A stretch of DNA of 32,000 bases from an uncultured Actinomycetes bacterium (lineage in GTDB: Bacteria; Actinomycetota; Acidimicrobiia; IMCC26256; PALSA-610). Each line of letters starts with the position of its first letter. The first letter of the stretch is position 1. This document shows positions 10,808 to 28,530 of this stretch, piece by piece. The DNA lies in contig CAWIMB010000002.1 of NCBI GenBank assembly GCA_963837155.1, positions 3,177,526 to 3,209,525 of the forward strand. Direction: 5' to 3'. Made by a program: the position numbers and the translations under genes. The notes beneath the pieces were generated by a model. The model ran no database searches. It saw nothing but the letters and a program-made list of their open reading frames with translations, and was not told where the DNA came from.

Positions 10808-11638
10808 TTGTGCAAAGATCGCGGCGTGCTGGCGGGTGGGGTGACGTCGGAACGAACATCGCTGGCGGCGTGCTTCGGCGGTGGCGTCGCGTTCGGGATC
10901 GCGTTCGATATGGGCGTGGCCCACGCGTTGCGTGACTCGGGCATCGCGATCGACGAGGGACCGATGCTCGGCACATCAGCCGGCGCGTGGACTGCGGGTG
11001 CGCTTGCGCTCGGCGTTTCGTTTCCGGACGTCCTGGCGGCCGTGCCCGCGGACCTGAGCTTCAAGCCGACGGCGACGCGTCCGGTCGACGTCGCCCGGGC
11101 GGTCTACGGCACGGCCCATGACGCTCGCGTCGCGGCCGTCGTTCTCGAGATCGCCGCGCCGCCCCGCCGCCGCGTGCTTTCGGGGGCGTCGCACTCGATC
11201 GCCGACATCGTCGCCGCGTCGTCGTCGCTGGTCGGCCTGGTCACGCCTCATTGCATCGGCACCCGCCGATTCCTCGATCCCGGCCCGCTCTTCATGACGT
11301 CCGCGCACCGCGCGCCCGCCGCCGACGTCCTCGTCGTTGTTGCCCCGATTGCGGGACGCGTCTTGGGCGCACGTGGTGCCGTCATCGAACGGCAACTGCA
11401 GATCGAGATGCAACTCTGGCGACGGCGGACGCGCGGACACGTCCTCTACGTCCGCCCGAACACCGAAGTCACTCGCCTCGCGGGGAGAAGGGTCTCCGAC
11501 CTCTTCGACGTCGGGCGCGCACGCGACATCTACGCGGCCGCGTACGACGAGGGTCTTCAGTGCGCGCGGCGCTTTCAGACTCGTCATCCCACGCTCGCGG
11601 CGGCGATTCGCGCTCCCGCGGTCGCCGCGAAGGGCTAA
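10808..11638 (+). CDS. patatin-like phospholipase (small, single-domain) no. 1
   Basis: Glycine-rich oxyanion motif FGGGVAFGIAF, nucleophile elbow GTSAG, and a later Asp in FLDPG. The start is uncertain (TTG 10808 or GTG 10826). Confidence 0.7.
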   Translation: MCKDRGVLAGGVTSERTSLAACFGGGVAFGIAFDMGVAHALRDSGIAIDEGPMLGTSAGAWTAGALALGVSFPDVLAAVPADLSFKPTATRPVDVARAVYGTAHDARVAAVVLEIAAPPRRRVLSGASHSIADIVAASSSLVGLVTPHCIGTRRFLDPGPLFMTSAHRAPAADVLVVVAPIAGRVLGARGAVIERQLQIEMQLWRRRTRGHVLYVRPNTEVTRLAGRRVSDLFDVGRARDIYAAAYDEGLQCARRFQTRHPTLAAAIRAPAVAAKG

Positions 11639-12078
11639 GCCTCGACGATTACCCAGCCGCGCATCCCGTACGCGAGATGACCCGGCAAGTGGCACGCGAA
11701 CTCGTAGCGACCCGGAGCTTCGAAGCGGTAGAAGGTCTCACCGATATCGAGGGCCTTGACCGACACCTCGCCGGGCACCGGAGGGTGCGCGGCTTCGTTG
11801 CCCTGTTGGTGCCTGCGGTGCACTGCGGCGTCACCAACGATGAACTCGTGGGCGATCGGATCGTCGTTGTGCACGAGGAACTTCACGAGCGTGCCCGGAC
11901 GCACGTGCAGCGTCGAGAATGAGAAATGACTGTGGCGAATCCCGACGTCGACGGTGACGAGGCCGGGGCCGAGCGGCGTGTCCCCTTCCGCGTGCGCGGA
12001 CCCTTCGAGTGCGTATCCGCCGATCGCGGTCGCGGCCGCAACCACAACCGCGAGAGTGATCCGTCCGAGAAGCCTCAC
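11635..12078 (-). CDS. exported cupredoxin-like (plastocyanin/azurin-type) copper protein
   Basis: 147 aa from a GTG at 12078 that overlaps the upstream stop (GTGA). N-terminal signal/anchor VRLLGRITLAVVVAAATAIGG and type-1 copper ligand pattern H...FACHLPGHLAYGM. The ORF-track extension to 12525 overlaps the upstream gene and is not credible. Confidence 0.75.
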   Translation of the reverse strand: MRLLGRITLAVVVAAATAIGGYALEGSAHAEGDTPLGPGLVTVDVGIRHSHFSFSTLHVRPGTLVKFLVHNDDPIAHEFIVGDAAVHRRHQQGNEAAHPPVPGEVSVKALDIGETFYRFEAPGRYEFACHLPGHLAYGMRGWVIVEA

Positions 12079-13133
12079 GCCGCAGCTCCCAGGTTCGGGC
12101 GGCGCCGGCCGAACACTCCGGCGATGGCGAACGTCAGCGCCCCGGCTCCCACTGCCGCCGCGACGGGCCACAGATTCCAGCCGGTGTCGGTCACGATCGG
12201 ACGCGCTTGGTCTGCCTGCACGCCAGTGTCGGTGAGGCGCGGCACCGAGTTGCTGTGCGTCGACATCGCGAGGTCGTAGTCCAGCTTCCCGGCGGTCGTG
12301 TCGAGCGGGAGATACGTGAACCACATGCGATCGGGGACCCAGCCCATGCCCTTGTCGGTGCGCAGATCGGAGAGCAGCTCCGGCGACGCCCACTCGTGAC
12401 GGGACAGCGCCAGACCGGGCCCGCCCGCCAACAGCTTGGGCTCGCTGTCGGTGAGGATGAACACGTCTGCATTCACGGCCTCGTTCTTGTCGAGACCGAG
12501 GCCGAGGATGCGTAGCGGCACCCACGGTTCACGGGTCGGCATCGTGAGCATGATCGGTGTGCCGTCACCGGAGCTCTGACCAAGCCGGCGAGCGCGCGCC
12601 GCGTCGAAACGTGCCGCCATGAACACGGGGCTGCGTTGCGAGTAGAAGTCGAGCACTTCCGGCGCGTCGGGCGAGAGCAAGAAGCCGTGATCGGTTGCCC
12701 ACTTGCCGACTTCCGCGCCACCGCCGCGCAAGACCGTGATGTCGAGCGCGTCGATCTTCTTTTGGATCAGCACCTGGGCACCTTCCGTCTTCGCAGCAGC
12801 ACGATCCTCGGCGAAAAACGCTTGGGGGACCGGTGGTGCGACCTCACGCTGCAGGCGTTGCAGCGTCCAGTCGCCGCCCCGTTCGACGTCGGTCGGCACC
12901 GCGGGCAACGGCACGATCGAGCCGAGCTCCTTGCCCTCGCCGGTGAACTGGAACGACGTCACGTAGCGTTCGACGCCGTCGTGATACGCGGCGAGTGTCG
13001 AAGTGCGCGTGAGACGGATGGTGCCGTTTTCCCCGACCAGACCGGCACAGGCGACTGCCGGCGCCGCGGCGCCGATCACCACTGCCGGTACGGCCACGGC
13101 CAGCGCCGCCCATCGAAGAGCTCGTGTGTGCAT
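12075..13133 (-). CDS. DUF2330-like exported protein with C-terminal membrane anchor
   Basis: 352 aa. Signal peptide ending in a Cys (AAPAVACAGLV), a long soluble region and a C-terminal hydrophobic helix (LWPVAAAVGAGALTFAIAGVF) followed by RRRP. The layout matches my recollection of DUF2330 proteins; the family assignment is unverified. Confidence 0.5.
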   Translation of the reverse strand: MHTRALRWAALAVAVPAVVIGAAAPAVACAGLVGENGTIRLTRTSTLAAYHDGVERYVTSFQFTGEGKELGSIVPLPAVPTDVERGGDWTLQRLQREVAPPVPQAFFAEDRAAAKTEGAQVLIQKKIDALDITVLRGGGAEVGKWATDHGFLLSPDAPEVLDFYSQRSPVFMAARFDAARARRLGQSSGDGTPIMLTMPTREPWVPLRILGLGLDKNEAVNADVFILTDSEPKLLAGGPGLALSRHEWASPELLSDLRTDKGMGWVPDRMWFTYLPLDTTAGKLDYDLAMSTHSNSVPRLTDTGVQADQARPIVTDTGWNLWPVAAAVGAGALTFAIAGVFGRRRPNLGAAA

Positions 13134-13252
13134 GCGATCCTCCGAATGCTCTGAAGCTGGGGGTCCGACGACCGCCGCCTGCCGGGAGTTCCCATCACCG
13201 GCAAATCCGCCCGAGCGGTGGCTAGCGTGCGGCCCGGAACGGAGGAACGGCG

Positions 13253-14227
13253 ATGGCTCGGATTGGTCTCGTGCTCGGCGCCGGCGGCGCGGTCGGGCAC
13301 GCCTTCCACACCGGCGTCCTCTCCGCGCTCGCGGACACCGCCGGCTGGGACGCTCGCGACGCCGAGGTCATCGTCGGCACGTCAGCCGGCTCATTGGTCG
13401 GTGCCCTGCTGCGCGCCGGCCTCTCGGGTACGGATCTCGCCGCCCGGACCAAGGACATGCCGCTGTCCGCCGAAGGCCGGCGGCTCGTGACGATCGCCGA
13501 AACCGCGCGTGGCGACCAACCACCGATTCCTTCCCGGCCTCCCCGCGCGTCACGCACCGGCGTACCCACGATGGCGGCACCCGGCGCGTTCGTGCACGCC
13601 GCCCGGCGACCCTGGAACGTGCGGCCGGGAGCACTGGCAGCCGCGGCGATGCCCGCTGGCCGCGTCCCTACAGAGCTGATCTCCACCGGATTGCGGCCGC
13701 TGTTCGATCACTGGCCCGAAGGGACCTTGTGGATCAACGCCGTCGAGCTCGAGTCGGGCCGGCGCGTGACGTTCGGTCGCAGCCGACGTGTCACCACCGA
13801 TGTCGCCACTGCGGTCGCGGCGTCGTGCGCGATCCCCGGCTTCTTCGCCCCCGTCTCCATCGGAGACGTTCGCTATGTCGACGGCGGTGTCCACTCGCCG
13901 ACGAACGCCGATCTCGTTGCCGGCCTCGGCCTCGATCTGGTGGTGGTGTCGTCGCCAATGTCGATCGCCCGCAACGGCATGCGGTTCGCTCCTGATCAAC
14001 CGGCGCGGCAGTTCTCCCGGATCACGCTCGCGCGCGAGGTGCGGCGGCTACGCAAAGCGGGAACGCCGGTCTTGACCTTCCAACCCACCGACACCGTCCT
14101 CGACGTCATGGGTTGGAACGCGATGGATCCGTCACGGCGGGCCGACGTCTCCCGCAGGGCGCACACGTCGGCGGTGCGCCGGCTCGAACGCGCCGACGCG
14201 CGCGACCGGGTGGCATTGCTCACATAG
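13253..14227 (+). CDS. patatin-like phospholipase (single-domain, CapV-sized) no. 2
   Basis: 324 aa. GGAGGAA ribosome-binding site before the ATG. Motifs LGAGGAVGHAFHTG, GTSAGS and the catalytic Asp in YVDGG. Confidence 0.85.
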   Translation: MARIGLVLGAGGAVGHAFHTGVLSALADTAGWDARDAEVIVGTSAGSLVGALLRAGLSGTDLAARTKDMPLSAEGRRLVTIAETARGDQPPIPSRPPRASRTGVPTMAAPGAFVHAARRPWNVRPGALAAAAMPAGRVPTELISTGLRPLFDHWPEGTLWINAVELESGRRVTFGRSRRVTTDVATAVAASCAIPGFFAPVSIGDVRYVDGGVHSPTNADLVAGLGLDLVVVSSPMSIARNGMRFAPDQPARQFSRITLAREVRRLRKAGTPVLTFQPTDTVLDVMGWNAMDPSRRADVSRRAHTSAVRRLERADARDRVALLT

Positions 14228-14256: not shown

Positions 14257-14313
14257 CTAGAGCCCCGACCGGCAACGTTTGCCGCGTTCCAACGTCACCG
14301 GACGGGGCTCTAG
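14257..14313. terminator. nested inverted repeat between convergent patatin and caspase-TIR genes (candidate bidirectional terminator)
   Basis: CTAGAGCCCCG (14257-14267) pairs with CGGGGCTCTAG (14303-14313). An inner hairpin CGGCAA-CGT-TTGCCG lies at 14270-14284. The outer right arm overlaps the TAG stop of the minus-strand gene. Confidence 0.4.
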
Positions 14314-16496
14314 TGCGAGAGCACCTGCACGGTTTTTCCGCATTGGATCGCGACGCTTCGAACGGCCACCGGCACGCTCAGCTGGACGCCCCAGTGCAAT
14401 GCACCCGCCTGATCGAACGGCGCGATCTCTCCCGCGAACAGGCCGATGCCGGGCGGTGCGGTCACGTTGCCGGACGTGCGAACGAGCGGCACGCGGAGGT
14501 CGGGACCACCATCGACACTCAAGATCGCTGTCACAACTGGATCGACGCCCGACGACGGTGTCTCGATCGCGATCGCGAACCGGTCGGGACCACGCGTGCA
14601 TGCCGCCGACAGGCGAACGTCGCCCGTCGCCGCGAACGAGGTCGTGGTAACCGCGACGGGGGCCGTCGTCGTCGGGCCCGGTCTCGAGCTGTTTCCTCCT
14701 GAGGTCGCGAGTGCGCCGAGCACGGCGGCCGCGCCGAGCGCGGCGGTACCGACTGCGGCGATCGTTCGCACGAGCCGGTGCTTCCTCGGCGGCCGGGGCG
14801 GACGTCCGGGGCTCGGTGACGGACTCGCCGGTGGCGGCGACGCAGGAGGCGGCGACGCAGGAGGCGGCGGCACGGGAGGTCGGCGCGCGGCAGGCGGCGG
14901 CGTAAAGCTCGGCGGCGCGGTAGCCACCGGCGGTACAGCAATCGGCGGCAACGAGCGGAAGTCGACGCGCTGGAAGTGCAGGCGCCGCAGCTCCGGAGGC
15001 GGAAGCTCTTCGTCGGAAGGAAGCGGCTCCTCCCAATACACGGGCCGTACGAACGACGGTCGCTGCAACGACAGCGCGTAGTCCCACTCCCTCTGCACGT
15101 TCGCCGAGTACATCGAGTTCCTCGACCAGAAAAGCTGGAACACGTCGGCCTGCGCGATCAGCTCGAGCAGTCGCGCGTCCCACTCCTCTCCCGCACGCAG
15201 CCGATTCGAGTCGCGCACGAACTCGTCACCGATGAGGTGCTCGATCGCGGCAACCTGTTCGACGACGGCGAGGTCGCGATGTGAGTACGAGACGAAGATC
15301 TTCCGGTACGGCCGGGCCCGTTCGGGCACGGGGCGATCGAGATCACTCAGTGCCGATGAGGACGCCAGTGTCGATGCCGGTGCCGTCGCCACGTCGTCAA
15401 CTCGAATGGTGAGGCTGATGTCGGCGATGAGCACTGCGTCATAGAACACCGACAGCTGACCGCGCGCGTGGCGGCCCTCGACGGCGGGCGACGCTCGGAG
15501 CCGGAACTGTGCCTCGTACACCTCCCCGCGCCAGCGGAACGCCTGATCCGGCGGATCGAACTCGATGCCTTCGACGTACGGCACGAACCGCAAGATCGCA
15601 CCGCGACCGATGGGTGCCGTGCTGTCGCTTCCCTTCTCGCCATAGGCCACACCTTCGCTTGCAAGTGCATCTGCTCGTCGCCGTACCTCCTCGGTCTGGT
15701 CGATCCACCCGCGTACGGGGTCCTCCACGAGGTCGGCCTTGTGCGCGAAGACGAGCATCTTGTATTCGACGCTCGGTTGCACCGCACGCGGGCGGTAAAC
15801 GCTGAACTGCACGTCGTCATCGAAAAGGTTGCGATCACGAAATCTGACGACCGCCATGCCCCGCGCGCGCGTGCTGGAGACGATGCAATGCGACGGTATT
15901 CCGACCTGCTCGATGCGCCGGCGCGCGTACGAGAACAGCTCGTCGAGCGTGATGGTCCCGTCGCGGTCGAGGTCGGCATCCCGGCCCGCGATTCCTTCTG
16001 CGAGCCGGCGCGTGAGACCGCCGTCGAGGCCGAGGCTCCTCGCGTTCGAGACCATGACGCCTACCGCGAGTCCTGCGAACGACTGCTCGAGCGAGACGAG
16101 ACGATCGCCGCTCGTTCCGGGACGATCGTCGTCGGCAAAGGTGCAATCGAAGATCACGACGATCGGTTGCCGTGAGCTGCGGATGACGTCCCGTACTGCG
16201 TCGATCGGCACGGCGGTCAAAGGAGTCGGCTGCTCGCCGGCGCGGGACGTGAAAAACAAGCGGCCGTCGTAGTCGCGCACGACATGCCCGCAGAACAGCA
16301 CCAACGTCAATGCATCAAGCGGCTGCGGTGAACTCTCCGGAAGCGCGTGCAATATGACCGCACCCGGCGCGTCGATCAGCGGCACCACGTTGACGGGAGC
16401 GTCGGTCGCGCTGGTAACCGCCGCGAGGAATTCATGTGCCTCGGCCGCGGTCGACTCACCGGCGACGACGATCGCAGTGGTGATCATGTCCGGCAC
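14310..16496 (-). CDS. multidomain membrane protein: caspase-like (peptidase C14-type) domain, EF-hand loop, beta-rich middle domain, TIR domain, Pro-rich linker, single TM helix, extracytoplasmic tail
   Basis: 728 aa, GTG 16496 with GGAG 7 nt upstream. His/Cys dyad context LTLVLFCGH(71) ... IVVIFDC(118), 46 residues apart. Caspase-tail plus EF loop GLTRRLAEGIAGRDADLDRDGTITLDELFSYARRRI. TIR: YRKIFVSYSHRDLAVV...DVFQLFWSRNSMYSANVQREWDYAL. Linker PPPASPPPASPPPASPSPSP. TM LVRTIAAVGTAALGAAAVLGALA. A 130-aa tail with two Cys. Confidence 0.75.
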   Translation of the reverse strand: MPDMITTAIVVAGESTAAEAHEFLAAVTSATDAPVNVVPLIDAPGAVILHALPESSPQPLDALTLVLFCGHVVRDYDGRLFFTSRAGEQPTPLTAVPIDAVRDVIRSSRQPIVVIFDCTFADDDRPGTSGDRLVSLEQSFAGLAVGVMVSNARSLGLDGGLTRRLAEGIAGRDADLDRDGTITLDELFSYARRRIEQVGIPSHCIVSSTRARGMAVVRFRDRNLFDDDVQFSVYRPRAVQPSVEYKMLVFAHKADLVEDPVRGWIDQTEEVRRRADALASEGVAYGEKGSDSTAPIGRGAILRFVPYVEGIEFDPPDQAFRWRGEVYEAQFRLRASPAVEGRHARGQLSVFYDAVLIADISLTIRVDDVATAPASTLASSSALSDLDRPVPERARPYRKIFVSYSHRDLAVVEQVAAIEHLIGDEFVRDSNRLRAGEEWDARLLELIAQADVFQLFWSRNSMYSANVQREWDYALSLQRPSFVRPVYWEEPLPSDEELPPPELRRLHFQRVDFRSLPPIAVPPVATAPPSFTPPPAARRPPVPPPPASPPPASPPPASPSPSPGRPPRPPRKHRLVRTIAAVGTAALGAAAVLGALATSGGNSSRPGPTTTAPVAVTTTSFAATGDVRLSAACTRGPDRFAIAIETPSSGVDPVVTAILSVDGGPDLRVPLVRTSGNVTAPPGIGLFAGEIAPFDQAGALHWGVQLSVPVAVRSVAIQCGKTVQVLSH
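14834..14878 (-). repeat. 15-nt tandem repeat (2 perfect plus 1 imperfect copies) encoding the PPPAS linker repeats
   Basis: GCGGCGACGCAGGAG at 14834-14848 and again at 14849-14863, then GCGGCGGCACGGGAG at 14864-14878. In frame within the caspase-TIR gene. Confidence 0.8.
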
Positions 16497-16511
16497 TACG
16501 CCACTCCGTCG

Positions 16512-16679
16512 TCAGGCGAAATGCAGAGCGTTGGGCGGCTCGGTGTTTTCGGTGCGAACAACGACGAACTGGGCAACGAGGCCGTCGTAGCGGCGGCCCG
16601 CGTACGGAGCGGAGTCGGCGCGGCGATAGTTGATGAAGATGCGCAGCCGTCGTTCCGTGCCGCCCGACCCGTCGTTCAC
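16512..16679 (-). other. 55-codon mini-ORF with a TIR N-terminal signature, in frame with and 5 codons upstream of the caspase-TIR ORF (remnant or interrupted N-terminal extension)
   Basis: GTG 16679: VNDGSGGTERRLRIFINYRRADSAPYAGRRYDGLVAQFVVVRTENTEPPNALHFA, then TGA (16514-16512), then CGA CGG AGT GGC GTA and the GTG at 16496. IFINYRRxDS...AGRxYDxL...F is the classic beta-A/alpha-A motif of bacterial TIR-like domains. No obvious ribosome-binding site of its own. Confidence 0.5.
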
Positions 16680-16716
16680 AGGCGAATTGCAGCCGGGCCG
16701 CGCCGATCGCGCAACA

Positions 16717-18111: not shown

Positions 18112-18185
18112 TGCGACCCCCTTCAAGGCATCCGGCGAGCGTAGCGGCCACCTGGCATCACTGCTGACGGGAACCTACTGCTGGT

Positions 18186-18926
18186 TCAGAAGCTCAGCTG
18201 GGCGCCGCGCACGATGGCTTCGCGCAGACGCGGGGCGTCCAGCCGTTGTTCGACCTCGCGGCCGCGCAACCGGAAACGCACGCGGTCGCCGTCGCGTCTC
18301 GCCTCGCGCAGTGACCAACCCGGAGCCATCGCCACCGGAAACGCGCGCTCGATGCGCAGCCAACGCGGCAGACCTATGGCGAACTTGCGCCAGCGAACAC
18401 CCCGCAGCTCGAGCCGGACGGTGTCGTCGCGCACGAACGGCTCGACGACGAACGTCGCTTCACTGCCACCGCGGCGCGCAATGATCTGGTGGTCCGAGAC
18501 TTCGAGCAACCACTCCCCGATCCGATCGTCGATCCACGCGATCACCGGTTCCAGTGGCGCGCACCCCTCGACCGCGATGCCCGTCGCGACGAACGTCGGT
18601 TGCACACCCGGCTCGAGGCGCACCGAGGCCACTATTCCGAGTGTGTCGAACAAGACGCCAGCCGCGTCTACATCACTCAGATCGATGCGCAGCTCGCGGC
18701 GGTCGCGGCGACGAAGCAGCCTCATCGAATCGAGCGTCGCGACGACCTGCTGCCCACGAATCGTCAGGTCGACGCGCTCGCCGCCGAAGCGCGCGACAAC
18801 GCCGTCGATCATTTGCGCGAGGAGCTCTTCCGCCTGGGCGGGAAAGCGCTGCGCGGCCGCGACCGCCGGCTCTACCCACCACGTCGTGAGATCCACCCAG
18901 GCGTCGAGCCAAGAGCGTGGCGTCAC
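18186..18926 (-). CDS. hypothetical protein, possibly DUF2993/LmeA-like
   Basis: 246 aa with good coding composition. Its GTG start overlaps the methyltransferase stop (GTGA). Repeated beta-like segments (RVDLTIRGQQVVATLDSMRL..., RIDLSDVDAAGVLFDTLGIVASVRLEPG) are reminiscent of DUF2993. The assignment is weak. Confidence 0.35.
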   Translation of the reverse strand: MTPRSWLDAWVDLTTWWVEPAVAAAQRFPAQAEELLAQMIDGVVARFGGERVDLTIRGQQVVATLDSMRLLRRRDRRELRIDLSDVDAAGVLFDTLGIVASVRLEPGVQPTFVATGIAVEGCAPLEPVIAWIDDRIGEWLLEVSDHQIIARRGGSEATFVVEPFVRDDTVRLELRGVRWRKFAIGLPRWLRIERAFPVAMAPGWSLREARRDGDRVRFRLRGREVEQRLDAPRLREAIVRGAQLSF

Positions 18927-19534
18927 GCCTGGACGTTACGGGACAACCGGCACAGTATGTGGAGGTTGCGGTCGAAGAGCCAACGAGCCGGGACCGGGTA
19001 GAGCCTCAGGTCCGTGCGCCACACCTGGATGCGGAGTCCCAGCGTCTCGAAGCACCGACGCCATTGGGCTTCCGGCCAGTAGTTGTACGGCAGCGCGACG
19101 CCGTGGTGCGCGTTGCCCACGTAGTCCATGAGCCGCAAGGTTCGTGTCGCGGCCACACCGGAGGCGAGGTGGTCCTTGAGCACGATGCCGCGGCGAGCCA
19201 CTCGAGCCGCTTCGGCGAGGAGCACCGCCGGGTCCTCGGTGTGGTGCAACACGTCGACGAACATCACGTCGTCGAAGCTGTCGTCGGGATACGGGATCGT
19301 CGTGCCGTCGAAGTGCGATACCGGGATGAGCGTGTGGGGCCGGACGAGAACGTCGATGCCCGTGACCTCGAGGTCGGGTCGCTGTCCCATCAACGTGCGG
19401 GCGACGCCGCCGTCGCCACAGCCGACGTCGAGCACACTGCTCCGGGCAGGGATGATCGACGAGAGACGCTCGGCGAGCAGTTGGATCCGGCGTCCCTGCA
19501 CGGCGCGCTGATGTGCGCGGCCGATGAGTCTCAT
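18923..19534 (-). CDS. class I SAM-dependent methyltransferase
   Basis: 203 aa with motif I VLDVGCGDGGVA and post-I/II elements (DDSFDDVMFVDVLHH). Its ATG overlaps the stop of the upstream GT gene (ATGA). Confidence 0.8.
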   Translation of the reverse strand: MRLIGRAHQRAVQGRRIQLLAERLSSIIPARSSVLDVGCGDGGVARTLMGQRPDLEVTGIDVLVRPHTLIPVSHFDGTTIPYPDDSFDDVMFVDVLHHTEDPAVLLAEAARVARRGIVLKDHLASGVAATRTLRLMDYVGNAHHGVALPYNYWPEAQWRRCFETLGLRIQVWRTDLRLYPVPARWLFDRNLHILCRLSRNVQA

Positions 19535-20850
19535 GCCGTGGTCACCAATTCGTCGACAGGTGCGAGCGGCTCCTCGGCCGCCGCCGTCTTCTCCCGACGG
19601 GCGCGCGCGATTCCAGCGTCGATCGCGACCGCGCCGAGAAGCACGAACGACACCTCCGCCGATGCCCGGTATCTGGTCTGGCCGAACGTCAGCGCGACGG
19701 TGATCGCGACCATCACGACGAGCGACACCAGCGGCAGGATTGGCACGCCTCGTTCCCGCAAGATGACCGCGCCGATCACCGAGGCGGGAACGAGGGCGTA
19801 GAACAGGAACAATCCGACGGTTCCGGCCGGGACATCGCGCGTCGTCTCGAAATCGTCGTAGTGCAGTTGCTGATCGGGCCGAAAGAATCCGAACGTCCGG
19901 CCCTCACCGCGACGATCACCCAGGGTAGCTGGCTCAGGTGAGCGCGCATGTAATCCAACGCGCTGGTCGCGGTACTCGACGTCGCGCACTGACGCGTCAC
20001 CAACAATCGGGGGACCGTCGGCACACTTGTACGACCAGAAGCCGAGGTTGAAGTCGCGGTACGTATCGGCACAGTTTCCGGCTTGCATCGTCCAGCCCAA
20101 GCTCGTGGACACAAACACTGGACGCTCGAACCGGCGCTCGTTGTGCGCGAACCAAGGCAGCAGCACCAGACCTATCGTGCCGGTTGCGACAAGGGCGAGC
20201 ACGCCCGCCCGGCGCCAATCGCGCTTGGTCGCGATCACCGCAAGCGGCGCGACGAGGAGCGGCACGAGCAGCAGCGCTTCGGCACGCGTGAACGCGAATG
20301 CCGCAACGGCCAGGCCGAGCACGCCCGCCGCGTGCCGGTCGGTGCCCGCCAGAACTGATAGGCGGCAAGGACCGTGAGCGCGGCCATGAGCAGCGTCAGC
20401 GTCTCCGACATCACAAGCCCGTCGTTGAGCCAGAAGTTGGGCGAGAACGCGGCCAAGGCGGCGGCGATCAGCCCGACCGCGCGGACCCGCGATCACGCGG
20501 CCCGCGGAGCCGACGGCCACCACCGCGCCGGTCCCGATGAGGCACGACCAGATCTGGTGCGCGAGCGTCGTGTCGAGGCCGACGAGCGAAGGCAACGCGA
20601 GGGCGACGATGTAGCCCGGTGGGTGATCGGCCGCCGGTCCCTTGGGCACGGCAAAGCCGAACTGTTCGAAGTTCGGAGAGACGAAGCCCTTCCCGTCGGC
20701 CAGCAAATTGGCGGCGTGGTGGTAGTACCAGCCGTCGCCGACCAGAACGAGGTCGTGCTTGAACGCGAGGACATAGACGAGGCGCACTGCCAGGCCGGCC
20801 CCTGCGATCGCGATGAGCGCGAAAAACCAGCTCCGACCACGCGCCACCAT
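19531..20850 (-). CDS. GT-C fold glycosyltransferase (family 39 / ArnT-PMT-like) with two internal off-frame segments
   Basis: N-terminus GDGWYYHHAANLLADGKGF...ADHPPGYIVALALP and multiple TM helices. Two stretches of the long ORF are Arg-rich nonsense, while a neighbouring frame reads family-typical sequence (see findings). Confidence 0.7.
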   Translation of the reverse strand: MVARGRSWFFALIAIAGAGLAVRLVYVLAFKHDLVLVGDGWYYHHAANLLADGKGFVSPNFEQFGFAVPKGPAADHPPGYIVALALPSLVGLDTTLAHQIWSCLIGTGAVVAVGSAGRVIAGPRGRADRRRLGRVLAQLLAQRRACDVGDADAAHGRAHGPCRLSVLAGTDRHAAGVLGLAVAAFAFTRAEALLLVPLLVAPLAVIATKRDWRRAGVLALVATGTIGLVLLPWFAHNERRFERPVFVSTSLGWTMQAGNCADTYRDFNLGFWSYKCADGPPIVGDASVRDVEYRDQRVGLHARSPEPATLGDRRGEGRTFGFFRPDQQLHYDDFETTRDVPAGTVGLFLFYALVPASVIGAVILRERGVPILPLVSLVVMVAITVALTFGQTRYRASAEVSFVLLGAVAIDAGIARARREKTAAAEEPLAPVDELVTTA

Positions 20851-20982
20851 GAAGCGAGACTACCCAGCGTGTCCGCCAAGGCACTTTGGGAGCGAGAAGC
20901 GCCGAACCCTTACGATTCCCGCCATGCAAGACGACAGCGCAGCGACCGGAGTGGAGCGAAGCGTGGAGTCGACCCGATAAGC

Positions 20983-22269
20983 ATGGCCGCCCCCTTCGCA
21001 CCCGCCGGATCGGTGTCGGTGGTCCTGCCGTGCCTCGACGAGGTCGGATCGGTCGGCGAGTGCGTCCGGGAAGCGCTCGACGCCCTCTCGGCCGCGGGCC
21101 TGGCCGGTGAAGTCGTGGTCGTCGACAACGGCTCGAAGGACGGTTCGGCGGCAGTCGCGGGCGCAGCCGGCGCCCGGGTGATTGCGGAGCCGCTCCCGGG
21201 ATACGGCAGTGCGCTCCGGGCGGGATTCGCGGCCGCCCGCAACGACGTCATCGTCATGGCCGACGCCGATCTCACCTATCCGCTCAGCAAGATCCCGGAG
21301 CTCGTGCAGCCGGTCCTCGCCGGGCGCTACGACCTCGTGCTCGGCGCCCGCCTCGGCGGCGCGACGCGCGAGACGATGCCGCTCCTGCACCGGTTCGTCG
21401 GGACGCCGGTGTTGTCGTACCTGATCTCTCGTTCCTGCGGTCAGCGCATCGTGCGCGACAGCCAGTCCGGGTTTCGTGCATTCCGTCGCAAAGAGATGCT
21501 CGCGCTCGGGTTGCGGTCGACCGGCATGGAGCTCGCGTCCGAGATGCTGATTCGCGCCGCACGCGCGGGCCTGCGCATCGGCGAGATCCAGACCGGCTAC
21601 CGCGAGCGAGTCGGGAGCTCGAAGCTCGCGACCTTCGCGGACGGTTGGCGCCACGTGCAGCTCATCTTCATGCTGGCGCCCGATCTCGTTCTGATTCGGC
21701 CCGGCGCCGCGCTCGCGGGCGTCGGTGCATTCATGAGCCTGCTCGGCTTGGCCGGGCCCACCGGTGTCGAGATCGGTTCGCTGATGTGGCAACCGGTTTT
21801 CTTCTCGAGCATCGCGCTCGTCCTCGGCACGCAGGCACTGCTCGCGGGCGCGGTGCTCGCGCACCGCTCGTCGGTGATCATCGGCGCACCTGATGCTCGC
21901 TACACGTTCGTGGGCCAACCGTCATTCCCGACGCAGTGCCTCACTGCCGGCACGTTGTCGATTCTCGCCGGGCTCGGCATCGACGCCGCATTGTTCGTCG
22001 CGTGGCTGCGCGGCGCGTCTTCGCCGCCTCCGGCGCGCGCCCAAGGGTTCGCAGCACTCGCGCAGAGCTTGCTGATCACGGGCGGCACACTCGCGAGCTT
22101 CGGGCTGACCGGTCGCTCGTTCCTGCGGCAACAACCGGACGGCGATGACACGAACGGCAATGGGGCAGGCGCGCCGACGCCGGTACTTGCGACGCGACCC
22201 CGAGGACGATTCAGCACCTGGCGCGAGCGTCTCGCGCCGCGCAATCCCGCGCCGCGGCCGCTCTCCTAG
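20983..22269 (+). CDS. GT2 glycosyltransferase, polyprenyl-phosphate sugar synthase-like, with C-terminal TM region
   Basis: ATG 20983: VSVVLPCLDE, VVVVDNGSKDGS, MADADLTYP (DxD) and SQSGFRAF, followed by 3-4 hydrophobic helices. The ORF-track start at 20374 overlaps the divergent gene and is not credible. Confidence 0.82.
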   Translation: MAAPFAPAGSVSVVLPCLDEVGSVGECVREALDALSAAGLAGEVVVVDNGSKDGSAAVAGAAGARVIAEPLPGYGSALRAGFAAARNDVIVMADADLTYPLSKIPELVQPVLAGRYDLVLGARLGGATRETMPLLHRFVGTPVLSYLISRSCGQRIVRDSQSGFRAFRRKEMLALGLRSTGMELASEMLIRAARAGLRIGEIQTGYRERVGSSKLATFADGWRHVQLIFMLAPDLVLIRPGAALAGVGAFMSLLGLAGPTGVEIGSLMWQPVFFSSIALVLGTQALLAGAVLAHRSSVIIGAPDARYTFVGQPSFPTQCLTAGTLSILAGLGIDAALFVAWLRGASSPPPARAQGFAALAQSLLITGGTLASFGLTGRSFLRQQPDGDDTNGNGAGAPTPVLATRPRGRFSTWRERLAPRNPAPRPLS

Positions 22270-22275
22270 TGGGCA

Positions 22276-22704
22276 CTAGCTTTCGGCGGTCACGCGGCGC
22301 GCCTCGCGCAGCTCGCCGGCGAGGGCGATCAGCAGTTGCTCCGCGAGATCGGAGAACTCGCGGAGCAGCGTGCGGAACATGCGGATACCGATCACCGCGA
22401 CCTTGACGTCGGTTGTCGCGACGACGGTCGCACTCCGTGGCTCACCATCGAGAATCGCGAGCTCGCCGAAGTACGCACCGGGCCCGACTCGGTTGAGCTC
22501 TTCACCGTCTCGGTGAACGACGGCGTCGCCCTCGAGGATCACGAACAGGGCATCGCCCGGTTCGCCCTCCTTCACCAGATCGACACCCGCGGGCAGCTCG
22601 GCGATCTGGGCGTGGCGCACAATCGCGCGGCGCTGCCGTGTCGTACATCGCGAGAAGAGCTTGACGTCCTCCAGCAACTCCGTCAGCTCTCGCTTCGCTC
22701 CCAT
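22276..22704 (-). CDS. stand-alone cyclic-nucleotide-binding domain protein
   Basis: 142 aa. cNMP-binding cassette GEPGDALFVILEGDAVV ... GAYFGELAILDGEPRSATVVA. No HTH or other output domain. Confidence 0.85.
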   Translation of the reverse strand: MGAKRELTELLEDVKLFSRCTTRQRRAIVRHAQIAELPAGVDLVKEGEPGDALFVILEGDAVVHRDGEELNRVGPGAYFGELAILDGEPRSATVVATTDVKVAVIGIRMFRTLLREFSDLAEQLLIALAGELREARRVTAES

Positions 22705-25068: not shown

Positions 25069-26445
25069 TCAGGCGCTCTTGCAGACTTCGTCGAACGCGT
25101 CCTGGAGGCACACGACGAGCGTGTCGGGGTCGGGTACCGCGGCCGGGTCGGTGCTGACGCCGACGTGGAGCTCGTCCATGTGCGAAATCAACGTCACGTT
25201 GACAGCAGCGCCCACGCGTGGCGAGTAGCCGAAGTTCTGCAGCGACCGCGCACCCGCGACGTAGATCGGGATCGGGCTGCCCGGAACATTGCTCGTGACG
25301 ACGTCGATACCGCGCATCACGTGCGAAACGACCGGCACGACGAACGCGCTCGGAACGCTGTTCAGCAGCCGTGCGATCGGGCTAGCGAACGGGAGGGCGC
25401 CCTCACTCCGTTGGGCCGCCGTCAGCTCGCGTATGAGCTCCATGCGAGCAATCGGATCATCGATGTTGATCGGCATCCGGAACCGCGTTGGCGCGAAGTG
25501 GTTTCCGAATCCAGCCGAGCTCCGCATGCTCACCGGCATTGCAAACCGCAGTTCCGGAACGTCGGCGCCGTGCTTCGCGTGATAGCGCCCCATACCGCCC
25601 GCGACACCCGCCATGAACACGGTATTGAGCTTCCCCTCCACGCGTCGAGCGGCCGCCTTCATCTCGTCGAGCGGCAGCACCAGCGCGTCGAAGCGGCTGC
25701 TCAGCGAACGCCCTCGCATCAACGGGCTGAGCGGGCCACCGCCTGGCGACGCGACTCGCGCCAGCGAGCGCGCCACGCCCGCGAACGACGTGATCGCATC
25801 AACGGGGTGAAGGCCGGCTCGTGCGACCGCTCCCGGTGCGCCCCGCACGAGGTTCACGAGCGCGCCGGCATCGGCGCGCACCGCCTCGGCGAGCAGCGTG
25901 AGTGTGGAATCGCCATCGGCGACCGGCGCGTCTGTGTCGGCAACCGGCTCCGACGCGTCCCGTTCGAAGTCGACGAACGTCAGCACGATGTCGAGCAGGC
26001 CGATTCCGTCGCCGAGCGAATGATGGATCTTCTGAATCGCCGCGGCACGACCATCGGCGAGCCCCTCGACGATGTGCGACTCCCACAGCGGGCGGGCCGG
26101 GTCGAATGGTCGCATCGCGAGGTGCGACGCATAGTCGAGCAGTTGCCGCATCCCGGCCGGTTCGCGCAGCCGCGTGTACTGCACGTGATAGTCGAGGTCG
26201 AAGTCGGCGGTGGTGCGCCACACCGGTGCCGCACCCGGTACCGGCGCACGGACCGGCACCTGATTGATGCGTGGCACGCGGCCGATGCCGCCGAGCACTT
26301 TTGTCCGGAAGCGTTCGTGGTCGGGCGCATGCTCCAAAAGCGCGACCTGGACGATCGTCGACCGAAGCATTGGCGATCGCTCGAGCCGCAACAACAGCGC
26401 GTCGGTCGGGCTCAGCCGGCGATTCGTGGCCTGCGTGTCAGTCAT
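25069..26445 (-). CDS. WS/DGAT paralogue 2
   Basis: 458 aa. LSPTDALLLRLE N-terminus and active-site HHSLGDG. Confidence 0.88.
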   Translation of the reverse strand: MTDTQATNRRLSPTDALLLRLERSPMLRSTIVQVALLEHAPDHERFRTKVLGGIGRVPRINQVPVRAPVPGAAPVWRTTADFDLDYHVQYTRLREPAGMRQLLDYASHLAMRPFDPARPLWESHIVEGLADGRAAAIQKIHHSLGDGIGLLDIVLTFVDFERDASEPVADTDAPVADGDSTLTLLAEAVRADAGALVNLVRGAPGAVARAGLHPVDAITSFAGVARSLARVASPGGGPLSPLMRGRSLSSRFDALVLPLDEMKAAARRVEGKLNTVFMAGVAGGMGRYHAKHGADVPELRFAMPVSMRSSAGFGNHFAPTRFRMPINIDDPIARMELIRELTAAQRSEGALPFASPIARLLNSVPSAFVVPVVSHVMRGIDVVTSNVPGSPIPIYVAGARSLQNFGYSPRVGAAVNVTLISHMDELHVGVSTDPAAVPDPDTLVVCLQDAFDEVCKSA

Positions 26446-26594
26446 GGCGAACCCTCACCCCCGCGGTGGGAGGGCCGTCAGTCTGTTCTCGACACCTTCG
26501 GCACGCAAGGTGGAAGCCGTTGGTACTGGCAAACAGAGGCGCCAATTCGTTAGCGTCCACTGCAGGACACCAGGCGGCAGCGGAGAGGGTTCAC

Positions 26595-28524: not shown

Positions 28525-28530
28525 CGCCGC

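What the first reader, a model, noticed from the sequence alone, without database searches (positions are those of the whole stretch)
14310..16496. Receptor-like membrane protein uniting a caspase-like protease, an EF-hand loop and a TIR domain with an extracytoplasmic tail
Directly readable in the 728-aa product:
- A caspase/metacaspase-type His-Cys dyad in canonical strand contexts (LVLFCGH71, VVIFDC118, 46-residue spacing).
- A perfect EF-hand loop, DLDRDGTITLDE (aa 175-186, nt 15939-15974).
- A beta-rich module of about 145 aa (DVQFSVYRPRAVQP...LTIRVDD).
- A TIR domain (aa ~397-515) with a Glu (E470 in NVQREWDYA) where bacterial TIR NADases carry their catalytic Glu.
- A Pro-rich spacer, one TM helix (aa 575-597) and a 130-aa Cys-containing tail predicted to be outside.

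There is no signal peptide, so both enzymatic domains should be cytoplasmic and the tail external. That is an inside-out analogue of a Toll-like receptor. TIR NADases and caspase-like proteases are each established signalling or effector modules in bacterial conflict systems (Thoeris, gasdermin-activating proteases, CHAT proteases). I do not recognise this single-polypeptide, membrane-anchored combination as any named system. It sits among lipid-metabolism genes with no operon partner on its strand, which suggests a self-contained sensor-effector.
Basis: partly seen in the sequence, partly recalled or inferred. Interest (0 to 1): 0.85.

Follow-up and report, generated by a model that had tools for sequence, protein, structure and literature searches.

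The report
Membrane-tethered caspase-fold plus TIR protein
This gene encodes a membrane-anchored protein that joins a caspase-like domain to a likely NAD-cleaving TIR domain, and it belongs to a large, apparently undescribed bacterial family in which the TIR unit is constant and the caspase part is only one of many alternative front ends.

Summary

- **Head:** it has the caspase fold, and H71 and C118 sit at the dyad positions. It lacks the His-Gly hallmark, and three close relatives have Asp in place of the His.
- **EF-hand:** this is a single Ca-type loop built into the caspase domain, not a separate module. It is better conserved than the dyad.
- **Beta module:** a generic Ig-like sandwich that is always paired with the TIR.
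- **TIR:** it keeps four residues that align with the experimentally tested NADase site of Cat1. E470 is invariant in 114 homologues.
- **Topology:** N-in, C-out.

The protein is not unique. The sandwich-TIR pair defines a family of at least 2,222 clusters at 50% identity. About 87% of sampled members have a transmembrane helix after the TIR. Their N-terminal heads vary, and kinases are the most common.

No partner gene is conserved, and the window shows no defence island. Orthologues sit in a conserved lipid-metabolism neighbourhood, and some have deleted the sandwich-TIR cassette.

The most likely function is a self-contained, membrane-tethered TIR NADase activated by clustering. That function is inferred, not shown. 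I rate it a new variant of a known kind, of moderate interest.

The parts
14310..16496 (-). Whole ORF, 728 aa, GTG start, stop codon included. The probable true start is the ATG at 16487.
15831..16487 (-). Caspase-fold head, aa 4-222, a diverged EACC1-type caspase domain.
   Evidence: NF047832 E=2.3e-9. AF2 pLDDT 87.9. Foldseek to MALT1, metacaspase and caspase-11 at E 8e-6 to 2e-4.
16284..16286 (-). His71 codon, at the dyad His position in the context FCGHVV. It is followed by Val, not Gly.
   Evidence: It aligns with the His of SCHG in P0018, which has a PF00656 hit. It is Asp in P0008-10.
16143..16145 (-). Cys118 codon, at the dyad Cys position in the context VIFDCT.
   Evidence: It aligns with the DC of P0018 and is invariant in 11 aligned sequences. 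It is lost in P0100.
15939..15974 (-). Single EF-hand-type loop DLDRDGTITLDE, aa 175-186, embedded in the caspase fold.
   Evidence: Pfam EF-hand_1 E=0.01, below the cut-off. Calmodulin loops are hit at E=4e-4. The model shows helix, loop, helix. The loop is present in all 14 caspase-like heads.
15393..15821 (-). Ig-like beta-sandwich, aa 226-368. It is the family-defining partner of the TIR.
   Evidence: AF2 pLDDT 88.6. Foldseek gives only generic sandwiches, best E=1.3e-3. The profile finds 2,222 representative clusters.
14964..15311 (-). TIR domain, aa 396-511.
   Evidence: PF13676 E=1.1e-12. The profile hits Cat1 and a TIR-TPR structure in the PDB.
15087..15089 (-). Glu470 codon, the predicted catalytic Glu of the TIR.
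   Evidence: Invariant in 114 homologues. It aligns with Cat1 E74, which lines the NADase site; E74A abolished the growth arrest in vivo (PMC12162218).
14775..14963 (-). Pro-rich linker (44% Pro), presumed disordered, aa 512-574. It contains a 15-nt tandem repeat at 14833-14899.
   Evidence: dN/dS is 0.41, the least constrained segment.
14706..14774 (-). Single transmembrane helix, aa 575-597, rich in Ala and Gly, preceded by a basic cluster.
   Evidence: Kyte-Doolittle 2.03 and the only segment above 1.6. A TM helix follows the TIR in 96 of 110 family members.
14313..14705 (-). Extracytoplasmic tail, aa 598-728: a Ser/Thr/Pro stalk and then a domain of about 100 aa with two conserved Cys (633, 719).
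   Evidence: Conserved only in the Acidimicrobiia orthologues. Weak resemblance to the tails of the kinase-type members P0014 and P0230. 58-62% identity to orthologues.
16497..16716 (-). Upstream intergenic region up to the WS/DGAT stop codon. It holds about 150 bp absent from orthologous loci, and no EACC1-like ORF.

Best explanation
The gene encodes a bitopic membrane protein with its N-terminus inside and its C-terminus outside, from an Acidimicrobiia-type actinobacterium.

**Constant core.** The core is a cassette: Ig-like beta-sandwich, TIR, long flexible linker, then a transmembrane anchor. I propose that the TIR is an NAD+-cleaving enzyme. It would stay inactive as a monomer and switch on when several copies are brought together in the plane of the membrane. 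This is how other bacterial TIR enzymes are activated by assembly.

**Lineage-specific parts.** The caspase-fold head with its built-in Ca-type loop and the external Cys-containing tail would control that clustering. Candidate triggers are Ca2+ entry or an envelope cue. The head may also contribute proteolysis.

**Output.** The output would be NAD+ depletion or an ADP-ribose-derived signal, leading to growth arrest or death of the cell. The cell might be stressed or infected.

**Shown:** the domain identities, the active-site residues, the predicted topology from sequence, the family-wide architecture, purifying selection, and the absence of a conserved partner gene.

**Inferred:** NADase activity, activation by clustering, Ca2+ control, and the biological trigger.
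For: **TIR and its active site**
- TIR_2 scores above the Pfam threshold.
- S403, D429, S464 and E470 align with Cat1 S7, D33, S68 and E74, which line its NADase site. Alanine substitutions D33A, S68A and E74A abolished the growth arrest in vivo; S7 was not mutated.
- E470 is invariant in 114 homologues, and the query keeps every TIR column that is at least 90% conserved.
- The TIR is the most constrained segment, with dN/dS 0.13-0.17.

**Cassette architecture**
- The sandwich and the TIR are always adjacent, in that order.
- 96 of 110 non-orthologous members have a TM helix after the TIR, and the median linker is 100 aa.
- Heads vary while the cassette stays constant.

**Self-containment**
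- No partner gene recurs in 28 loci or in seven Pfam-annotated contexts.

**Head**
- The caspase fold is supported.
- The EF-type loop is conserved in all 14 caspase-like heads.

**Topology**
- The basic cluster on the N-terminal side of the TM helix indicates that the N-terminus is inside.
Against: - No biochemical or phenotypic data exist.
- The window and the orthologous loci are lipid-metabolism neighbourhoods without defence genes.
- The query lineage has changed six near-invariant sandwich residues: W244E, P267Q, N314D, E324G, H327Y and G353D.
- Sister lineages have deleted the cassette altogether while keeping head, TM helix and tail. So the TIR is dispensable in this clade, and the head and tail have a function of their own.
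- The head lacks His-Gly, and its His is not conserved in close relatives.
- Half of the family has no ectodomain, so outside sensing cannot be the general trigger.
Confidence: 0.45

Rival explanations
1. Housekeeping or regulatory role tied to neutral-lipid metabolism. The protein would be a membrane-bound regulator, for example of wax-ester or TAG turnover or of dormancy. It would be co-expressed with the WS/DGAT gene upstream, and the TIR would adjust NAD+ or ADP-ribose levels as a metabolic signal rather than in conflict.
For: - The order WS/DGAT, this gene, patatin, DUF2330, cupredoxin, ECH, ACAD is conserved in four genomes.
- The gene is on the same strand as WS/DGAT, only 65-125 bp downstream in orthologues.
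- There is no defence gene nearby.
- The gene is vertically inherited and under purifying selection.
Against: - Family members elsewhere sit in unrelated contexts.
- The gene diverges faster than its neighbours: 71-73% identity against 80-95%.
- The cassette is lost in sister genomes with unchanged synteny.
- No known lipid pathway uses a TIR or caspase-fold protein (my own knowledge).
Confidence: 0.15
2. A fused, cis-acting version of type IV Thoeris. The TIR would make an ADP-ribose-derived signal, such as N7-cADPR, that activates the caspase-like protease in the same chain, and the protease would then degrade cellular proteins.
For: - TIR-to-caspase signalling is established in bacteria (Rousset et al., bioRxiv 10.1101/2024.10.24.620036).
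- Both domain types are present with the key residues.
- Caspase or CHAT heads have joined the cassette in at least three lineages: P0018, P0100, and P0038/41/43.
Against: - The caspase head is one of many interchangeable heads, and kinases dominate. The sandwich therefore goes with the TIR, not with the protease.
- There is no match to Thoeris models in NCBIfam or PADLOC.
- His-Gly is missing and His is replaced in relatives. The P0100 head is catalytically dead.
- Head, TM helix and tail persist without the TIR.
Confidence: 0.1
3. Scaffold or adaptor role. The TIR and the sandwich would act as non-enzymatic oligomerisation modules in a receptor-like signalling protein, as in animal TLR and MyD88. 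The head domain (kinase, caspase and so on) would be the real output.
For: - The architecture head, linker, TM helix, ectodomain matches that of receptor-type bacterial Ser/Thr kinases (established knowledge).
- Kinase heads dominate.
- Ig-like domains often mediate dimerisation.
Against: - The catalytic Glu and three further NADase-site residues are invariant or nearly so across the family. A pure scaffold would not need them.
Confidence: 0.1
4. A decaying relic of an EACC1-caspase conflict system. It would have lost its EACC1 partner and be losing its effector parts, with little present function for the TIR or the protease.
For: - There is no EACC1-like gene in the window or in orthologous loci.
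- The NF047832 score is low, 37 bits against a cut-off of 140.
- Near-invariant sandwich residues are degenerate.
- Relatives have deleted the cassette and changed His to Asp.
Against: - All segments are under purifying selection, and the TIR most strongly.
- The TIR keeps every conserved family residue.
Confidence: 0.1

Closest known systems
EACC1-caspase two-gene membrane-associated conflict system (Kaur, Burroughs, Iyer & Aravind 2020, eLife, PMC7159879, 'System 4')
   Same: - It has an N-terminal caspase-superfamily domain followed by a variable C-terminal region that often contains TM helices, and it is prevalent in actinobacteria.
- The query head matches the NCBIfam model for this caspase type at E=2.3e-9.
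- The relative P0018 (caspase + sandwich + TIR + TM) scores 133 bits against the cut-off of 140.
   Different: - There is no 5' EACC1 gene here or in the orthologues.
- The score is far below the family cut-off.
- The dyad context is degenerate.
- The sandwich-TIR-TM unit is mostly found with non-caspase heads, so it is not simply one of that system's C-terminal options.
Type IV Thoeris (TIR protein plus caspase-like protease; Rousset et al. 2024, bioRxiv 10.1101/2024.10.24.620036)
   Same: - It combines a TIR that has a catalytic Glu with a caspase-family domain that has a catalytic Cys.
- The predicted outcome is growth arrest or death.
   Different: - Thoeris IV is two separate soluble proteins in an operon, frequently near other defence systems, and its caspase has its own C-terminal sensor domain.
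- Here there is one membrane-anchored chain, an Ig-like sandwich between the two domains, no defence context, and no model match.
Assembly-activated bacterial TIR NADases, for example Cat1 (PMC12162218)
   Same: - The TIR active-site residues align: S7/D33/S68/E74 with S403/D429/S464/E470.
- In Cat1 the active site is completed by a neighbouring TIR. Activation by proximity is therefore a reasonable model.
   Different: - Cat1 is soluble and is triggered by cA4 binding to a CARF domain.
- Here there is no nucleotide-sensor domain. There is instead a membrane tether and an Ig-like partner domain.
- The profile similarity is weak (E=0.027).
Receptor-type bacterial Ser/Thr kinases (PknB-like) and animal TLR/IL-1R
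   Same: - All are single-pass membrane proteins that couple an outside domain to a cytoplasmic signalling domain.
- The family's commonest form is kinase, sandwich-TIR, linker, TM helix, with or without an ectodomain.
   Different: - TLRs have the N-terminus outside, with the TIR C-terminal to the TM helix and non-enzymatic.
- PknB-type kinases have no TIR.
- Half of this family is tail-anchored with no ectodomain.
- The resemblance is one of logic, not of descent.

Membership tests
Caspase / clan CD peptidase (Peptidase_C14) | Caspase-haemoglobinase fold | tested here: met
   The AF2 model has pLDDT 87.9. Foldseek finds MALT1 at 8e-6, metacaspase 9 at 1.7e-5 and caspase-11 at 2.3e-4.
Caspase / clan CD peptidase (Peptidase_C14) | His and Cys dyad at the ends of consecutive core strands | tested here: met
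   H71 and C118 align with the His and Cys of P0018, which has a PF00656 hit. Both lie in strands E60-71 and E109-117 of the model, His three residues and Cys two residues before the strand end.
Caspase / clan CD peptidase (Peptidase_C14) | His-Gly motif and conservation of the dyad among close relatives | tested here: not met
   The motif is GHV, not HG. His is Asp in P0008-10. P0100 has lost both residues.
Caspase / clan CD peptidase (Peptidase_C14) | Pfam PF00656 or PF12770 match | tested here: not met
   No hit at E<=1.
Caspase / clan CD peptidase (Peptidase_C14) | Proteolytic activity | not testable with these tools
   This needs a cleavage assay with H71A and C118A controls.
EACC1-caspase system (Kaur et al. 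2020) | Caspase domain of the EACC1-associated type (NF047832) | tested here: inconclusive
   E=2.3e-9, but 37 bits against a cut-off of 140. The relative P0018 scores 133 bits.
EACC1-caspase system (Kaur et al. 2020) | Adjacent 5' gene encoding the single-TM EACC1 protein | tested here: not met
   The upstream gene is WS/DGAT. The 220-bp spacer has no such ORF. tblastn with the small gene upstream of P0018 finds nothing in the window or in L001-L003.
EACC1-caspase system (Kaur et al. 2020) | Variable C-terminal region, often with TM helices | tested here: met
   Sandwich, TIR, TM helix and tail follow the head.
TIR_2 / bacterial TIR NADases | TIR domain profile match above threshold | tested here: met
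   PF13676, 48.9 bits against 28, E=1.1e-12, aa 400-514.
TIR_2 / bacterial TIR NADases | Catalytic Glu and the surrounding active-site residues | tested here: met
   E470 is invariant in 114 sequences. S403, D429, S464 and E470 align with Cat1 S7, D33, S68 and E74.
TIR_2 / bacterial TIR NADases | NAD+ hydrolase or cyclase activity | not testable with these tools
   This needs an NAD+ consumption assay with an E470A control.
EF-hand | 12-residue loop DxDxDGxIxxxE flanked by helices | tested here: met
   The loop is exact at aa 175-186. The model shows a helix, the loop with a short bridge, then a helix.
EF-hand | Profile match above threshold, and a paired EF-hand domain | tested here: not met
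   EF-hand_1 scores 15.7 bits against 25.4. There is a single loop only, embedded in the caspase fold.
EF-hand | Ca2+ binding | not testable with these tools
   This needs ITC or a 45Ca overlay with loop mutants.
Type IV Thoeris | [quoted passage not shown] | tested here: not met
   This is a single chain. The context is not a defence context. NCBIfam and PADLOC give no match. The sensor domain of PsCaspase could not be compared because no sequence was at hand.
Unnamed sandwich-TIR-TM cassette family (defined here) | Ig-like sandwich directly N-terminal to the TIR, followed by a linker and a TM helix | tested here: met
   - aa 225-511 is 40-52% identical to more than 100 proteins.
- A TM helix follows the TIR in 96 of 110 members.
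- The profile finds 2,222 clusters.
- However, the query differs at 6 of the near-invariant sandwich columns.

The most novel reading that the evidence does not exclude
The sandwich-TIR-linker-TM cassette could be a widespread and so far undescribed bacterial 'receptor-proximal' TIR signalling unit. Membrane clustering would switch on TIR NAD+ chemistry. The clustering would be driven by an ectodomain, by the anchor itself, or by the head domain. The interchangeable heads (kinase, caspase/CHAT, Hsp70, WD40) would act as co-outputs or sensors. In this protein a Ca2+-binding caspase-fold head would make it a Ca2+-gated, membrane-damage-sensing death or dormancy switch. That would be a prokaryotic counterpart of TLR-type induced-proximity signalling in one chain.
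Probability: 0.15. Interest if true: 0.85.

Novelty: new variant of a known kind. Interest (0 to 1): 0.55.

Why it matters
[quoted passage not shown] Every characterised bacterial TIR system I am aware of is soluble and is triggered by a partner protein or a nucleotide signal.

This finding leads to a family of at least 2,222 clusters at 50% identity. In it, a TIR with an intact NADase site is permanently tethered to the membrane and paired with an unclassified Ig-like domain. No partner gene is conserved. The N-terminal enzymes are interchangeable.

If the TIR is activated by clustering at the membrane, this would add a new activation mode to bacterial TIR biology. It would also give a simple one-gene system for testing induced-proximity TIR signalling.

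The particular protein in the window is a derived member. Its sandwich is partly degenerate and its protease site is uncertain, so it is a pointer to the family rather than the best model for studying it.

Tried and rejected
- **Word-indexed homologue search with the head alone.** It returned one protein, which was useless for depth. I built the head alignment from orthologues plus P0018 instead.
- **Sequence and profile searches of the PDB.**
  - The whole protein gave only low-complexity noise.
  - The head profile hit only calmodulin loops.
  - The sandwich profile hit nothing.
  - The P0018 head hit nothing.
  - The caspase assignment therefore rests on NF047832, on P0018 and on the fold search.
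- **Fold of the sandwich.** Foldseek against the PDB and against viral models gave only generic Ig, Fn3, MG and CARDB-like hits at E>=1.3e-3. I found no specific family.
- **Defence-system assignment.** PADLOC gave only a weak TIR-region hit (E=0.0025). NCBIfam gave no Thoeris model. The neighbours are not defence genes.
- **EACC1 partner.** None was found.
- **Tail homology.** The tail profile finds only the orthologues. hhalign to the largest tail cluster is negative. There is only a weak, motif-level resemblance to P0014 and P0230.
- **Upstream 150-bp insert.** It carries a TIR-strand-like peptide, but this could not be confirmed.
- **Promoter and terminator scan.** It was uninformative.
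- **Literature.** I found no paper describing caspase-TIR or kinase-TIR fusions, and nothing in the held supplement of Kaur et al..
- **Exact-sequence look-ups of P0001.** They found no contig record and no name. The organism is therefore inferred from the orthologue in an Acidimicrobiia MAG.
Full report
**1. The observation**

The minus-strand ORF 14310..16496 (728 aa, GTG start) is real.
- GC3 is 0.73-0.83 in every 100-codon block, including the Pro-rich part.
- An identical protein is on record from a 3.995-Mb contig (P0001).
- Full-length orthologues of 66-73% identity exist (P0002-P0005).
- dN/dS against two orthologues is 0.21-0.24 for the head, 0.22-0.23 for the beta module, 0.13-0.17 for the TIR, 0.41 for the linker and 0.29-0.32 for the tail. 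The gene is therefore functional throughout.
- All orthologues begin at the ATG that is codon 4 here, and the DNA alignment is conserved from just upstream of it. The true start is therefore probably 16487.

**2. The head (aa 4-222)**

*Fold and dyad*
- Pfam gives no Peptidase_C14 hit.
- NCBIfam NF047832, 'caspase, EACC1-associated type', matches aa 46-196 at E=2.3e-9. The score is 37 bits against a cut-off of 140.
- An AlphaFold2 model built from 11 sequences has pLDDT 87.9 and an alternating strand-helix order.
- Foldseek against the PDB returns MALT1 paracaspase (8e-6), metacaspases 9 and 4, caspases 11, 4 and 9, and the bacterial protein GSU0716. The caspase fold is established.
- H71 and C118 align with the His of SCHG and the Cys of LDCW in P0018, a relative with a precomputed PF00656 hit and 133 bits on NF047832.
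- Both residues lie in core strands of the model, two to three residues before the strand end.

*Points against an active protease*
- The residue after His is Val. The Gly that is nearly universal in clan CD (established knowledge) is absent.
- The three closest TIR-less relatives, P0008-10, have Asp in place of His.
- P0100, another caspase-fold head joined to the same cassette, has lost both residues (CCPV and VDDR).

*The EF-hand*
- It is a single canonical 12-residue loop lying between two helices of the caspase fold (model H157-167, loop, H181-194).
- It lies inside the NF047832 profile match.
- It is below the Pfam EF-hand thresholds.
- It draws only calmodulin loops from the PDB (E=4e-4).
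- It is present in all 14 caspase-like heads in my set, including those with a broken dyad.

The loop is therefore a conserved part of this caspase clade, better conserved than the catalytic residues. A Ca2+-dependent regulatory role for the head is at least as likely as proteolysis.

**3. The beta module and the TIR form one cassette**

*Distribution*
- BLAST of the query against the first 120 homologues shows that more than 100 non-orthologous proteins match aa 225-511 at 40-52% identity, and nothing else in the query.
- In the 28 genome loci examined, nearly every strong TIR match is directly preceded by the sandwich. Only the two most divergent loci lack a detectable sandwich.

*The sandwich*
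- Its model has pLDDT 88.6. It is an all-beta sandwich with one inserted helix.
- Foldseek finds only generic Ig-, Fn3-, MG- and CARDB-like domains, best E=1.3e-3.
- It has no Pfam, NCBIfam or PDB sequence match.
- A profile of the sandwich alone finds 2,222 proteins at E<=1e-3 among 1.84 billion representatives clustered at 50% identity, and 848 at E<=1e-30.

*The TIR*
- It passes Pfam TIR_2 (E=1.1e-12).
- A profile of the family's TIR reaches a TIR-TPR structure (E=8e-4) and Cat1 (E=0.027) in the PDB.
- In that alignment S403, D429, S464 and E470 fall on Cat1 S7, D33, S68 and E74. The Cat1 paper lists these residues as lining the NADase site. Alanine substitutions D33A, S68A and E74A abolished the growth arrest in vivo; S7 was not mutated (PMC12162218).
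- E470 is invariant in 114 homologues, and the query keeps every TIR column that is at least 90% conserved.

*Degeneration in the query lineage*

The query lineage differs at six near-invariant sandwich columns: W244E, P267Q, N314D, E324G, H327Y and G353D.

**4. Membrane tether**

- The only strongly hydrophobic segment is aa 575-597.
- It follows a 63-aa linker of 44% Pro and a cluster of basic residues, and a Ser/Thr/Pro stalk comes after it. This indicates that the N-terminus is inside and the C-terminus outside.
- The tether is a family trait. Of 110 non-orthologous members:
  - 54 are tail-anchored
  - 33 have one TM helix plus an external tail
  - 9 have several TM helices
  - 14 have none detected

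  The median linker is 100 aa.
- The external tails are diverse and lineage-specific.
- The query's tail is conserved only among its orthologues, with two invariant Cys. It resembles only weakly the tails of the kinase-type members P0014 and P0230.

**5. Heads vary**

I counted these by reading the Pfam column.
- About a third of the 110 members carry a Ser/Thr kinase head.
- Other heads are Hsp70, WD40, FHA, CHAT, zinc ribbons, DUF4062, sedolisin pro-domains and type VI secretion-related domains.
- About 40% have no Pfam-recognised head.
- Caspase-superfamily heads are rare and come from different clades: the query lineage, P0018, P0100, and the CHAT proteins P0038/41/43.

**6. Genomic context**

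*The window*
- It is a lipid-metabolism region with three WS/DGAT genes, three patatins, an MMPL transporter, an acyl-CoA dehydrogenase, an enoyl-CoA hydratase and a cNMP-binding protein.
- PADLOC finds no defence system in it.

*Orthologues*
- The order WS/DGAT, target, patatin, DUF2330, cupredoxin, ECH, ACAD is conserved in three related contigs. One of them is from an Acidimicrobiia MAG.
- The target is 71-73% identical to its orthologues, while the flanking genes are 80-95% identical.
- In L003 the same slot holds a 474-aa protein with head, linker, TM helix and tail but no cassette.
  - P0006 and P0007 still carry the first residues of the sandwich (NLFDDEVAFS) fused to the linker. This shows an internal deletion.
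  - Head and tail remain as conserved there as in the TIR-bearing orthologues.

*The wider family*
- All-against-all comparison of ORFs in 28 loci found no recurrent neighbour apart from the gene itself and its shadow frames.
- Seven Pfam-annotated contexts share nothing.

**7. Interpretation**

*What is shown*
- A functional single gene encodes a membrane-tethered protein.
- The protein has a caspase-fold head, an Ig-like sandwich, and a TIR with an NADase-type active site.
- It is one member of a large family with the constant cassette sandwich-TIR-linker-TM.

*What I infer*
- The TIR cleaves NAD+ and is activated by proximity. In Cat1 the active site is completed by the neighbouring TIR. 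A long flexible tether in two dimensions is well suited to assembly that depends on local concentration.
- The head, possibly through Ca2+, and the tail would modulate that assembly.
- The biological trigger is open. It could be phage, envelope damage or a developmental cue.

*Rivals*

The rivals are a lipid-linked regulatory role, a fused type IV Thoeris, a pure scaffold, and a decaying relic. Each has some support and is listed with tests.

**8. Comparison with what is known**

- *EACC1-caspase system of Kaur et al..* This is the closest described system for the head. The defining 5' EACC1 gene is absent and the profile score is sub-threshold, so I do not file the protein as a member.
- *Type IV Thoeris.* It shares the TIR-plus-caspase theme. 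It differs in gene number, solubility, context and domain content.
- *Literature.* I found no description of the sandwich-TIR-TM cassette or of caspase-TIR or kinase-TIR fusions in the searchable literature. The Aravind-group papers do list TIR, caspase and kinase as recurrent effector domains in multicellular bacteria.

**9. Verdict**

- This is a new variant of a known kind.
- Interest is moderate. The family is worth more attention than this particular, partly degenerate member.

Noticed in passing
window 16497-16716, mainly 16512-16676, minus strand: The spacer between WS/DGAT and the target carries about 150 bp that L002 and L003 lack. On the minus strand it reads VNDGSGGTERRLRIFINYRRADSAPYAGRRYDGLVAQF...HFA*. 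The RIFINYRRAD stretch looks like the first strand of a TIR domain, so this may be a gene remnant. Pfam finds nothing, and the match to the family's TIR profile is not significant.
   Followed up: partly
window 18127-22275; L002:4360-8442: A 4.1-kb block lies between the cNMP-binding gene and WS/DGAT and is absent from L001 and L003. It holds a hypothetical gene, a SAM methyltransferase, a second hypothetical gene and a polyprenyl-phosphate-type GT2. In L002 the same slot holds a 1360-aa gene of a different TIR family, with an N-terminal TIR and WD40-type beta-propeller matches. The slot therefore looks like an insertion hot spot.
   Followed up: partly
window 22276-22704 (-): A stand-alone 142-aa cNMP-binding protein is conserved in all syntenic loci. 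It matches PADLOC PycTIR and Pycsar effector models over residues 31-145 of the 288-position PycTIR model, which I take to be the cNMP-binding part (E=8e-16). One relative, L003, also has a cNMP_binding-patatin fusion nearby.
   Followed up: no
window 14833-14899: A 15-nt tandem repeat of 4.5 copies encodes (PPPAS)n in the juxtamembrane linker. Linker length and sequence vary between orthologues.
   Followed up: no
L003:10001-11425 (P0007); P0006, P0008-P0010: These orthologues sit in the same syntenic slot but have lost the sandwich-TIR cassette. P0006 and P0007 keep a short remnant of the sandwich start. P0008-10 also have Asp in place of the caspase His.
   Followed up: yes
L035:548-2503 (P0100): A caspase-fold head joined to the same cassette has lost both catalytic residues but keeps the EF-type loop DTDGDGLVTVDE. 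This points to a non-proteolytic role for such heads.
   Followed up: partly
L030:2515-2898: A 127-aa gene ends 4 bp before the caspase-sandwich-TIR gene P0018. It has a weakly hydrophobic, Gly-containing segment and, from memory, resembles EACC1. NCBIfam gives no hit, so this is unconfirmed.
   Followed up: partly
L034:5708-6841: A second TIR_2 gene of 377 aa lies divergently next to the family member P0072. A MazE/PIN pair is 4 kb away.
   Followed up: no
window 25069-29964 and 10808-14227: The window holds three WS/DGAT paralogues and three patatin-like genes, together with an MMPL transporter. This looks like a dedicated wax-ester or triacylglycerol storage and mobilisation locus in this Acidimicrobiia-type genome.
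   Followed up: no
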